Positions 9,075 through 9,398 of a stretch of 41,228 bases of DNA are shown here, piece by piece. The notes under the pieces are model-generated. The model saw only the letters and a list, made by a program, of their open reading frames with translations, searched no databases and was not told the origin of the DNA. The number at the start of each line of letters is the position of its first letter. The stretch's first letter is position 1. Origin of the DNA: an uncultured Clostridia bacterium (lineage in GTDB: Bacteria > Bacillota > Clostridia > TANB77 > CAG-508); NCBI GenBank assembly GCA_947625545.1, contig CANQOW010000002.1, forward strand, positions 1-41,228. Reading direction: 5' to 3'. Position numbers and translations under genes: made by a program.

Positions 9075-9137
9075 CAAAAAGAGCCAATTTATTTATATGC
9101 GTAATTGTATTACTAACATATAAACAAAGTTGACTCT
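9075..9137 (-). terminator. Extended hairpin plus U-run, copy 2 of the leader-terminator module
   Basis: Minus strand: AGAGTCAA (9137-9130) pairs with TTGGCTCT (9087-9080), including one G-U pair, then TTTTTG follows. Differences from copy 1 preserve pairing. Confidence 0.5.
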
Positions 9138-9189
9138 GTTTATTTTCTTTATTAAATTTAATTTTAGAACTAAAAATGACGCAATTATC

Positions 9190-9267
9190 CTATCTACTAA
9201 ACATATTGTGTGTGTGTGTGTGTGTGTGTGTGTGTAGAGTACCAACGGTTTCAAGACTTGCTATCAT
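9190..9267 (-). CDS. Leader-like small ORF, copy 2. It is out of phase after the (CA)14 tract (25 aa: MIASLETVGTL(HT)nNMFSR).
   Basis: AAGGGAG sits 8 nt upstream of the ATG at 9267. The stop TAG is at 9190-9192. The conserved C-terminal reading frame continues to the TAA at 9093-9095 in a different frame. Confidence 0.3.
   Translation of the reverse strand: MIASLETVGTLHTHTHTHTHNMFSR
9207..9234. repeat. Dinucleotide microsatellite: (TG)14 on the plus strand, (CA)14 on the coding strand
   Basis: Direct count of 14 units. Confidence 0.95.
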
Positions 9268-9311
9268 TTTTAAAACTCCCTTCTTTTGTTTTATTTTCTT
9301 TTTACTTTTTT

Positions 9312-9340
9312 ATTTTATACAAACTTTATTATATTGTCAA
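9312..9340 (-). promoter_or_regulatory. Sigma-70-type promoter, copy 2 (TTGACA-17-TAAAAT)
   Basis: Minus strand: TTGACA at 9340-9335, TAAAAT at 9317-9312. Confidence 0.6.
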
Positions 9341-9398
9341 GAGTTTTATTAAAATTTTCGTTGCATTTCACTTACAAATTTATTTAATCAATTTTCAC

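What the first reader, a model, noticed from the sequence alone, without database searches (positions are those of the whole stretch)
9075..9355. Promoter, (CA)14-containing leader ORF and terminator upstream of the GLUG surface-protein gene: candidate phase-variable attenuator
Seen on the minus strand, in order. A near-consensus promoter (TTGACA-17-TAAAAT). An SD (AAGGGAG) and an ATG at 9267. ATG ATA GCA AGT CTT GAA ACC GTT GGT ACT CTA followed by (CA)14. With 14 units the ORF stops early, at the TAG at 9190-9192 (25 aa). A second frame, open from the repeat to the TAA at 9093-9095, encodes ...ASFLVLKLNLIKKINRVNFVYMLVIQLRI, which matches the C-terminus of the in-phase copy at 114-296. That stop lies 5 nt before the 3' arm of an extended hairpin plus U-run (9075-9137). 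My arithmetic: adding one CA unit, or removing two, fuses the ATG to the long frame. Inference: slipped-strand changes in the dinucleotide tract would decide whether ribosomes translate into the terminator hairpin and mask it (read-through towards the GLUG gene, ON) or stop about 50 nt short of it (termination, OFF). I do not know of a described system that couples simple-sequence-repeat phase variation to leader-peptide attenuation. Alternatives: the unit is an independent small gene or sRNA, or the alternating purine-pyrimidine tract acts through DNA structure (Z-DNA or supercoiling).
Basis: partly seen in the sequence, partly recalled or inferred. Interest (0 to 1): 0.8.

Follow-up and report, generated by a model that had tools for sequence, protein, structure and literature searches.

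The report
Repeat-switched leader upstream of surface-protein genes
A short upstream reading frame carrying a slippery (CA)14 tract, followed by a terminator hairpin, precedes a surface-protein gene and recurs before at least 13 paralogues in this uncultured gut Clostridia species; it looks like a second, independently evolved, genome-wide version of the random on/off switch shown experimentally only for Streptococcus gallolyticus pili.

Summary
On the minus strand, 9076-9340 holds a near-consensus promoter, an SD, an ATG, a (CA)14 tract, a 25-aa ORF and a 26-bp hairpin with a U-run. A second, in-frame copy lies at 96-369.

The unit is not unique. A MAG of the same species (96.5% identical over 4.6 kb) has 17 hits. 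Every copy with enough downstream DNA sits 100-350 nt upstream of a paralogous gene (conserved N-terminal anchor, variable GLUG-type body).

- Tracts range from 5 to 15 units between copies whose flanks differ by only 1-3 bases.
- One frame always runs into the hairpin. The other two stop 52-59 nt before it.
- The peptide sequence is not conserved, but the frame stays open.
- No promoter-like site lies between the hairpin and the gene. The same promoter drives a leaderless paralogue directly at 11302-11330.

Here the repeat is a dinucleotide, there is no obvious sequence relationship, and the switch is spread across a whole gene family.

Switching, termination and translation-dependence were not tested. 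Verdict: a probable new variant of a known kind.

The parts
9312..9340 (-). Unit promoter, TTGACA-17-TAAAAT
   Evidence: 11/12 match, the best in the region. The same module is conserved in 15 copies across the window and the loci.
9276..9282 (-). Shine-Dalgarno AAGGGAG of the leader ORF, 8 nt before the ATG at 9267
   Evidence: Read directly from the sequence. Conserved in all copies.
9190..9267 (-). Leader ORF in its present phase (25 aa, MIASLETVGTLHTHTHTHTHNMFSR, stop TAG). This is the predicted OFF state.
   Evidence: The stop lies 52 nt before the base of the hairpin.
9207..9234 (-). (CA)14 simple-sequence repeat inside the leader ORF
   Evidence: TRF reports 100% matches. Paralogues carry 5-15 units.
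9093..9206 (-). Long frame from the tract to the TAA at 9093-9095 inside the hairpin. It joins the ATG when the tract has 12 or 15 units.
   Evidence: It is homologous to in-frame leaders P0005 and P0007-P0010.
9171..9184 (-). TTGCGTCATTTTTA segment that pairs with the leader SD/AUG region, leaving the CA tract in the loop
   Evidence: MFE folds of 22 distinct copies. This role is inferred.
9076..9137 (-). Intrinsic-terminator-like hairpin (26 bp, -22.7 kcal/mol) plus U5 run
   Evidence: The alignment fold gives 26 pairs, 2 of them with compensatory changes. L006 keeps the shape with a different sequence.
8789..9075 (-). Modular spacer / 5' UTR between the terminator and the structural gene
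   Evidence: No promoter-like site on this strand. Its length is 60-300 nt among paralogues. It contains a 28-nt inverted repeat.
7274..8788 (-). Controlled gene: 504-aa protein with a conserved N-terminal hydrophobic anchor and a GLUG motif
   Evidence: Pfam Glug scores 29.8 bits against a cut-off of 20.5. It belongs to a paralogous family of 393-583 aa: the N-terminal 40 aa are about 95% conserved and the rest about 40-50%.
96..369 (-). Second copy of the unit, in phase. Promoter 341-369, ATG 296, tract 237-264, 60-aa ORF 114-296, hairpin 100-158, U-run 96-100. Its downstream gene lies beyond the window edge.
10176..11330 (-). The same promoter module (11302-11330) directly driving a paralogue (365 aa, 10176-11273), with no leader, tract or hairpin

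Best explanation
The region is a phase-variable leader-peptide transcription attenuator.

**Proposed mechanism.**
1. Transcription starts at the strong promoter (9340-9312).
2. A ribosome loads at the SD and ATG (9267) and translates across the (CA)n tract.
3. Slipped-strand mispairing changes the tract by 2-nt steps, which cycles the ORF through three phases.
4. In two phases, including the present 14 units, translation stops 52 or 59 nt before the hairpin. The 26-bp hairpin and U-run then form, and most transcripts end at about 9076 (OFF/low).
5. In the third phase (12 or 15 units) the ribosome reads on to a stop inside the 3' arm of the hairpin. This physically prevents hairpin formation, and RNA polymerase continues through the 290-nt spacer into the GLUG surface-protein gene (ON).

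The same module precedes each member of a large paralogous family. Each gene would therefore switch independently, giving a shifting surface repertoire.

**Shown here:** the anatomy, its conservation, its linkage to the gene family, the tract-length diversity, and the frame-dependent stop positions.

**Inferred:** slippage within populations, terminator activity, translation-dependent read-through, and which phase is ON.
For: **Anatomy.** It is confirmed in the window.

**Linkage to the gene family.**
- There are 17 unit hits in one MAG of the same species. The window and the MAG are 96.5% identical over 4.6 kb.
- All 19 anchor-bearing genes of the MKGK..GITLIAL type found in the collected DNA have a unit within 600 nt upstream. 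Every unit with enough downstream DNA has such a gene. The one exception found later is the leaderless 365-aa paralogue listed below.

**Tract variability.**
- Tract length is 5-15 units. In 66 of 78 paralogue pairs the tract lengths differ, although median flank identity is 94.6%. For example, L015 and L017 differ by 1 substitution in 121 nt but carry 14 and 6 CA units.
- Orthologous loci differ in tract length: 14 vs 11 units and 12 vs 9 units.

**Frame behaviour.**
- In all sequence types, both off-frames stop within 9 codons of the tract. The third frame stays open for about 35 codons and ends inside the hairpin.
- Codon variants between the tract and the stop codon are 6 synonymous, 28 non-synonymous and 0 stops. 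Translation appears to matter, not the peptide.

**Hairpin.** It is conserved in all copies (-19 to -31 kcal/mol, U5 tail) with compensatory changes.

**Promoter evidence.**
- No promoter-like site of 9/12 or better lies on the gene strand between the hairpin and the gene in the window, L012 or L010. Compact copies leave only about 60 nt there.
- The same promoter module directly drives a leaderless paralogue at 11302-11330.

**Precedent.** S. gallolyticus pil1/pil3 has been shown experimentally to work this way, with the same geometry. It is OFF when the stop lies 28 nt or more before the terminator and ON when the stop is at or inside it. The terminators there are -18.7 and -28.2 kcal/mol.
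Against: - There are no read-level data, so tract heterogeneity within a population is not shown. The two clear orthologous comparisons both changed by 3 units and kept their phase, so they do not document a switch.
- The hairpin is AT-rich, and the simple terminator scan did not flag it. Its efficiency is unknown.
- Weak promoters cannot be ruled out in 26% G+C DNA.
- Only 1 of 13 MAG copies is in frame, against 1/3 expected (P=0.039). That could reflect selection for OFF, but it could also reflect decay of the ORFs.
- The conserved C-terminal 'peptide' overlaps the hairpin, so its conservation is not independent evidence of coding.
- The in-frame leaders recovered from metagenomes were found through a protein search, so they are biased towards in-frame copies.
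Confidence: 0.6

Rival explanations
1. The unit is an independent small gene or small RNA with its own promoter and terminator. It duplicated together with the neighbouring surface-protein genes, which are transcribed separately from weak promoters in the spacer. Under this view the tract only decides whether a small peptide is made.
For: - The unit is a complete promoter-to-terminator cassette.
- In-frame 53-62-aa ORFs exist in several metagenome contigs.
- The spacer can be up to 300 nt long and is structured.
Against: - The peptide sequence evolves without constraint: 6 synonymous against 28 non-synonymous variants.
- 12 of 13 copies in the MAG would be broken genes, yet they keep intact promoters, SDs and hairpins.
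- No promoter-like site lies in the spacer on the gene strand, and compact spacers are only about 60 nt long.
- No match in Pfam for the 60-aa leader peptide or in Rfam for the region.
Confidence: 0.12
2. The tract acts through nucleic-acid structure rather than reading frame. One option is as a variable-length unstructured loop of the stem that sequesters the leader SD and AUG, which would tune translation or RNA stability. Another is Z-DNA or a supercoiling-sensitive element in the DNA.
For: - A long-range pairing between the SD/AUG region and TTGCGTCATTTTTA, enclosing the tract, is predicted in almost all copies.
- Alternating purine-pyrimidine CA/TG tracts can adopt Z-DNA. This rests on general knowledge and was not tested here.
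Against: - Loop length varies from 0 (L004) to 15 units with no compensating change elsewhere.
- This view does not explain why exactly one frame stays open into the hairpin in all sequence types.
- It does not explain why indels outside the tract are multiples of 3 in the divergent copy L006.
Confidence: 0.1
3. The element is an amino-acid-sensing (His/Thr) attenuator of the classical trp/his type, in which the run of CAC/ACA codons stalls ribosomes.
For: The tract encodes alternating His-Thr in either reading frame.
Against: - The downstream genes encode surface proteins, not biosynthetic enzymes.
- The number of His/Thr codons ranges from 0 to about 10 between copies.
- Most copies terminate translation right after the tract.
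- No alternative antiterminator pairing is evident in the folds.
Confidence: 0.03
4. The units are decaying relics. The tract is a neutral microsatellite in the 5' region of a duplicated gene family, and the genes are expressed constitutively by terminator read-through.
For: Most copies are out of frame. No direct evidence of switching exists.
Against: - The promoter, SD, ATG, open long frame and hairpin are intact in every copy, and the geometry is conserved in divergent relatives (L006, L004, window copy B).
- Perfect tracts of up to 15 units are maintained in a 26% G+C genome.
Confidence: 0.1

Closest known systems
Streptococcus gallolyticus pil1 / pil3 leader-peptide phase variation with transcription attenuation (Danne et al. 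2014, PMC3894217)
   Same: - The order of parts is the same: promoter, RBS/ATG, SSR-containing leader ORF, stem-loop terminator with a U-run, then the surface-structure gene.
- Repeat number sets the frame, and so whether the leader stop lies well upstream of the terminator (low) or at/inside it (high).
- The numbers are similar. OFF stops lie 28-49 nt upstream there and 52-59 nt here. Hairpins are -18.7 and -28.2 kcal/mol there and -19 to -31 here.
   Different: - The repeat is the dinucleotide CA (5-15 units) rather than the pentanucleotide GCAGA (13-22 units).
- One of three frames is predicted ON here, against two of three there.
- There is no evident sequence relationship, and the bacterial class differs (uncultured Clostridia versus Streptococcus).
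- The controlled genes are single anchor-plus-GLUG proteins, not sortase pilus operons.
- The module is present at 13 or more loci per genome rather than 2.
- Nothing has been tested experimentally here.
Neisseria opa gene family (about 11 loci, each with a CTCTT repeat; PMC3745409 and general knowledge)
   Same: A dispersed family of paralogous surface-protein genes, each carrying its own SSR. Members can switch independently, so most are OFF at any one time.
   Different: In opa the repeat lies inside the structural gene (the signal-peptide coding region) and acts by frameshifting the protein itself. Here it lies in a separate upstream ORF and would act on transcription termination.
E. coli pyrBI-type attenuation by ribosome occlusion (general knowledge; trp attenuation as discussed in PMC3894217)
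   Same: A leader ORF extends into the attenuator. A closely following ribosome prevents the terminator hairpin from forming.
   Different: That control is physiological (UTP-sensitive pausing or charged tRNA supply). Here it would be a heritable, stochastic change in DNA repeat number.
Clostridioides difficile cwpV and flgB switches (PMC2784873; Rho review PMC12360218)
   Same: Phase-variable surface genes in Clostridia in which the OFF state is imposed by premature transcription termination in the leader.
   Different: Those switches are DNA inversions made by a recombinase. No invertible element or recombinase is involved here; the variable element is a microsatellite.

Membership tests
SSR-driven leader-peptide transcription attenuator (S. 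gallolyticus pil1 type) | A leader ORF with its own RBS and start codon, containing a simple-sequence repeat | tested here: met
   AAGGGAG, 8 nt, ATG, then (CA)14 at 9207-9234. The same arrangement is seen in all copies with a visible start.
SSR-driven leader-peptide transcription attenuator (S. gallolyticus pil1 type) | A stem-loop terminator with a U-run between the leader and the structural gene | tested here: met
   A 26-bp hairpin of -19 to -31 kcal/mol with a U5 tail in all copies, with compensatory changes. This is a prediction only; termination activity is not testable with these tools.
SSR-driven leader-peptide transcription attenuator (S. gallolyticus pil1 type) | Repeat number moves the leader stop between 'well upstream of the terminator' and 'at or inside the terminator' | tested here: met
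   In-silico tracts of 11-17 units give stops 52 or 59 nt upstream, or inside the 3' arm. The natural copies behave the same way.
SSR-driven leader-peptide transcription attenuator (S. gallolyticus pil1 type) | The structural gene is transcribed from the promoter upstream of the leader | tested here: inconclusive
   No promoter-like site of 9/12 or better lies in the spacer on the gene strand. Compact spacers are about 60 nt. The same promoter drives a leaderless paralogue. Consensus scans cannot exclude weak promoters, and no transcript data are available.
SSR-driven leader-peptide transcription attenuator (S. gallolyticus pil1 type) | Repeat number varies between strains and within populations | tested here: inconclusive
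   Variation is seen between paralogues (5-15 units) and between orthologous loci of different strains (14 vs 11, 12 vs 9). Variation within a population cannot be tested without reads.
SSR-driven leader-peptide transcription attenuator (S. gallolyticus pil1 type) | Read-through depends on translation of the leader | not testable with these tools
   This needs start-codon mutants or uncoupling of translation, as done in PMC3894217.
SSR-driven leader-peptide transcription attenuator (S. gallolyticus pil1 type) | Sequence homology to the S. gallolyticus leader | not tested
I treat the two as analogous, not homologous.
GLUG-motif proteins (Pfam PF07581) | Match above the Pfam gathering score | tested here: met
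   29.8 bits against a cut-off of 20.5, residues 393-417.
Type IV pilin-like proteins (N_methyl, PF07963) | N-terminal methylation motif above threshold, with Glu at +5 | tested here: not met
   14.9 bits against a cut-off of 21.2. The sequence is G-ITLIA, with Ala where Glu is expected. No NCBIfam hit. The N-terminus only resembles a pilin.
Classical amino-acid attenuators (trp/his leaders) | A fixed run of regulatory codons, alternative antiterminator/terminator hairpins, and a biosynthetic operon downstream | tested here: not met
   The codon run varies from 0 to 10. The downstream genes encode surface proteins. No antiterminator alternative appears in the folds.
opa-type intragenic SSR phase variation | The repeat lies inside the coding sequence of the regulated protein | tested here: not met
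   The tract lies in a separate ORF about 420 nt upstream of the start of the GLUG gene. No tract is present in the structural gene.

The most novel reading that the evidence does not exclude
An uncultured, low-G+C gut Clostridia species controls a whole family of at least 13 variable surface proteins with independent (CA)n leader-peptide attenuators. These were evolved convergently with the two S. gallolyticus pilus switches. Natural 'locked' forms exist (a tract-less in-frame leader and a leaderless paralogue), and most loci are held OFF at any time. This would amount to an opa-like antigenic-variation system acting at the level of transcription termination.
Probability: 0.5. Interest if true: 0.7.

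Novelty: new variant of a known kind. Interest (0 to 1): 0.6.

Why it matters
In the paper library searched here, SSR-in-leader-peptide attenuation has been shown experimentally in only one species, at two loci. A second, apparently unrelated instance would show that the mechanism is a recurrent evolutionary solution rather than a curiosity. This one uses a dinucleotide repeat, sits in a different bacterial class, and is multiplied across a whole gene family.

It also points to a large, stochastically expressed surface-protein repertoire in an uncultured gut commensal. That bears on immune or phage evasion, and on how MAG annotations treat 'intergenic' microsatellites and short frameshifted ORFs.

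The family offers built-in natural controls for testing the model: in-frame, out-of-frame, tract-less and leaderless members.

Tried and rejected
- **Rfam.** At gathering threshold on the whole window, and at E<=1 on 1-10300 and four loci, it gave only a tRNA and chance hits of the long hairpin to a plant miRNA precursor. No known RNA family matches.
- **Protein families.** Pfam gave nothing for the 60-aa leader peptide. Pfam and NCBIfam gave nothing for the 365-aa paralogue, and NCBIfam gave nothing for the GLUG protein.
- **PDB.** A sequence search with the GLUG protein gave no match.
- **JGI metagenome contigs.** Two scans with unit patterns found nothing. The wider strain comparison I had planned was therefore not possible.
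- **Exact-protein look-ups.** Look-ups of the GLUG protein, the M50 peptidase and P0002 found no contigs. The ToxN look-up gave one 816-bp contig that ends before the tract.
- **Viral contigs.** One scan used a gap that was too short and is invalid. The repeat with the validated pattern found nothing, and blastn against phage records found nothing. The unit is not phage-borne.
- **Cluster look-up.** It gave no accession or organism names.
- **His/Thr-sensing attenuator.** Considered and rejected (see rival explanations).
- **Type I toxin-antitoxin reading.** Considered because the + strand has a promoter-like site at 9130-9158. That site scores only 9/12, which is chance level, and it overlaps the conserved hairpin.

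Full report
**1. The observation**

- A TTGACA-17-TAAAAT promoter lies at 9340-9312. It scores 11/12 and is the best hit in 8600-10300.
- AAGGGAG lies at 9282-9276, and the ATG at 9267.
- A perfect dinucleotide tract of 14 units lies at 9207-9234.
- A 25-aa ORF stops at the TAG at 9190-9192.
- A second frame is open from the tract to the TAA at 9093-9095.
- A long hairpin spans 9137-9080 and is followed by UUUUU.

A second copy lies at 96-369. Its ATG (296) is in phase with the long frame and gives a 60-aa ORF.

Tracts of 12 or 15 units give ORFs of 56 and 58 aa that read into the hairpin. Tracts of 11, 13, 14, 16 and 17 units give ORFs of 22-27 aa.

These are the only CA/TG tracts of 5 or more units in a window with 26% G+C.

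**2. The unit is a repeated module, not a single locus**

A 42-nt signature of the unit was scanned against one genome per species. It found 17 hits, all in one MAG: uncultured Clostridia, rabbit gut, CANRES01. Many of these hits lie at contig ends, as expected for a dispersed repeat.

That MAG is the same species as the window. Window 11273-15880 matches MAG locus L023 at 96.5% over 4.6 kb.

Protein searches with the in-frame and alternative-frame leader ORFs recovered nine further small ORFs of 53-62 aa. They come from ENA, NCBI and JGI assemblies. Contigs for seven of them were fetched.

Every copy with enough downstream DNA is followed 100-350 nt later by a gene that starts MKGK.LKERGITLIALVITIIVLLILAGV. 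Conversely, all 19 such genes in the collected DNA have a unit within 600 nt upstream. The leaderless paralogue described in section 4, whose N-terminus reads AITLVAL, is the one exception and was found by a later, broader motif search.

These genes form a paralogous family.
- Their lengths are 393-583 aa.
- The first 40 residues are about 95% conserved, and the remainder only about 40-50%.
- The window member (7274-8788) passes the Pfam Glug threshold.
- Its N-terminus only resembles a type IV pilin. N_methyl scores below threshold and there is no Glu at +5.

**3. Properties of the unit across copies**

*Tract variability.*
- Tract length ranges from 5 to 15 units, and one copy (L004) has none.
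- Within the MAG the flanks are 94.6% identical (median), yet 66 of 78 copy pairs differ in tract length.
- L015 and L017 differ by one substitution in 121 nt but carry 14 and 6 units. The tract therefore evolves much faster than its surroundings.
- Upstream flanks identify orthologous loci in different strains with different tracts. Window copy A has 14 units and MAG L023 has 11. MAG L010 has 12 and L025/L026 have 9.
- Both of those comparisons changed by three units and so kept their phase. They show length change but not a switch.

*Frame geometry.*
- The geometry is the same in all sequence types: the A type, the B type of window copy B, the tract-less L004, and the divergent L006.
- Both off-frames stop within 9 codons of the tract, 52 and 59 nt before the hairpin in the window.
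- The third frame stays open for about 35 codons and ends inside the 3' arm of the hairpin.

*Peptide constraint.*
- The peptide itself is not under constraint. Between the tract and the stop codon, distinct codon variants are 6 synonymous, 28 non-synonymous and 0 stops. Variable sites show no third-position excess.
- Differences from the divergent L006 outside the tract appear to be multiples of three.
- This pattern fits a leader whose translation matters, not its product.

*Hairpin.*
- The hairpin (26 pairs, -19 to -31 kcal/mol, U5 tail) is kept in all copies.
- Two pairs show compensatory changes, and L006 has a different inner sequence with the same shape.

*Current phases.*
- Of 13 MAG copies with a visible start, one is in frame, six are in phase 1 and six in phase 2.
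- That is fewer in-frame copies than the 1/3 expected (P=0.039). The test is weak because paralogues are not independent.

**4. Is the unit promoter the promoter of the downstream gene?**

- On the gene strand, the consensus scan finds no site of 9/12 or better between the hairpin and the gene start. This holds for the window, L012 and L010.
- In compact copies only about 60 nt, including the SD, separate the U-run from the ATG.
- The same promoter module (TTGACAACTTGTTAAAGTTTATATAAAAT, 11330-11302) sits directly in front of another paralogue at 10176-11273. That gene has no leader, tract or hairpin.

The module is therefore the family's promoter, and the leader plus hairpin is an insert between the promoter and the gene. 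This evidence is indirect, because weak promoters cannot be excluded in such AT-rich DNA.

**5. Mechanism**

The phase of the tract decides whether a ribosome following RNA polymerase reaches the hairpin.
- With the stop at 9095-9093, a terminating ribosome would cover the 3' arm (9087-9080). This follows from the roughly 30-nt ribosome footprint cited in PMC3894217. The terminator then cannot form, and transcription continues into the gene.
- With the early stops, 52-59 nt of untranslated RNA precede the hairpin, and termination is expected.

The window's copy A (14 units) is therefore predicted OFF and copy B predicted ON. The tract-less in-frame L004 leader and the leaderless 365-aa gene would be natural constitutive forms.

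An extra feature is a predicted long-range stem. It pairs the leader SD/AUG with TTGCGTCATTTTTA (9184-9171) and encloses the tract. It may restrict leader initiation to the co-transcriptional window, but that is speculation.

**6. Comparison with known systems**

One exists. Danne et al. 2014 (PMC3894217) showed the following in S. gallolyticus:
- GCAGA repeats in a leader ORF upstream of pil1 set the leader's length.
- Short leaders stop 39-49 nt before a -18.7 kcal/mol terminator and give low expression.
- Long leaders stop at or inside the terminator and give high expression.
- Mutating the ATG, deleting the terminator, or adding chloramphenicol behaves as predicted.
- pil3 has the same arrangement.

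Further full-text searches found no other example.

The present system matches that anatomy point for point, but it differs in several ways:
- the repeat unit (a dinucleotide);
- the number of ON frames (one of three rather than two of three);
- the host class;
- the kind of gene controlled;
- above all the copy number (13-17 loci rather than 2).

In that last respect it resembles the opa family of Neisseria (about 11 loci; PMC3745409). In opa, however, the repeat lies inside the structural gene.

I therefore classify it as a new variant of a known kind. It is analogous to the streptococcal switch rather than homologous.

**7. Limits**

No reads or transcripts were available. Two JGI metagenome scans found nothing. 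Exact-protein look-ups of neighbouring genes gave no contig that spans the tract.

Slippage within populations, terminator efficiency, dependence on translation, and the assignment of ON and OFF are all inferred.

**8. Other features nearby**

- A complete type III toxin-antitoxin locus lies immediately upstream of copy A. ToxN is at 9399-9905 (Pfam 166.7 bits). A 35-nt x 3.2 ToxI-like array is at 9970-10083, with a hairpin between the two.
- Compared with the MAG and L004, this locus and the leaderless paralogue form an insertion of about 2 kb, bracketed by two copies of the family promoter.

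Noticed in passing
window 9399-10167 (-): A complete type III toxin-antitoxin (ToxIN-like) locus. It has a promoter-like site at 10167-10139 and a 35-nt x 3.2 tandem array at 9970-10083 (96% matches), which would be the antitoxin RNA repeats. A hairpin lies at 9971-9941, followed by toxN at 9399-9905 (Pfam PF13958, 166.7 bits). The array has no Rfam match.
   Followed up: partly
window 10176-11330 (-): The family promoter module (11302-11330) directly drives a 365-aa paralogue with no leader, tract or hairpin. Its first 55 aa are 49% identical to the GLUG protein. Its C-terminal part is unrelated to the GLUG body and matches no Pfam or NCBIfam family.
   Followed up: partly
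window 9355-11273 versus L023 4980-5054 and L004: In the MAG and in contig L004, the syntenic upstream gene (window 11338-12594) is followed at once by the leader unit. The window instead carries an extra segment of about 2 kb (leaderless paralogue plus ToxIN), bracketed by two copies of the about 75-nt promoter module. This suggests insertion or recombination between promoter copies.
   Followed up: partly
L004 614-775 (orthologous to window copy A): At the same chromosomal position, another strain has a leader of the copy-B sequence type with no CA tract at all. It is in frame through to the hairpin, so it would be a naturally 'locked' version of the switch.
   Followed up: partly
window copy A vs L023; L010 vs L025/L026: Both clear orthologous comparisons differ by exactly three CA units (14 vs 11 and 12 vs 9). 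They therefore keep the same phase, one pair OFF and one pair in frame. This could be chance (about 1 in 9) or selection on phase at individual loci.
   Followed up: no
window 9171-9184 with 9262-9282 (-): The leader's SD and AUG are predicted to pair with a conserved segment, TTGCGTCATTTTTA, downstream of the tract. This places the CA tract in a loop of 70-90 nt. The pairing recurs in nearly all 22 distinct copies, including the divergent L006.
   Followed up: partly
window 8789-9075 (-): The spacer between the terminator and the gene is built from blocks that are present or absent among paralogues, giving lengths of 60-300 nt. It contains a 28-nt inverted repeat (8880-8907 / 8949-8976) and folds better than shuffles (z = -3.25). 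It could be a small palindromic insertion or a second regulatory structure.
   Followed up: partly
window 9052-9072 and 9149-9169: Sequences on either side of the terminator hairpin are complementary (21 nt, 86%), centred on the palindrome TTAAATTTAA. This extends the hairpin into a palindrome of about 118 nt.
   Followed up: no
window 9130-9158 (+): An antisense promoter-like site, TTGACT-17-TAAATT (9/12), overlaps the 5' arm of the hairpin and recurs in other copies. The score is at chance level, and the recurrence may only reflect conservation of the hairpin.
   Followed up: no
window 4692-7073 (-), repeats at 5744-5899: The MutL homologue just downstream of the GLUG gene carries a long Glu/Asn/Lys-rich low-complexity insert, encoded by degenerate tandem repeats of 12-69 nt.
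   Followed up: no
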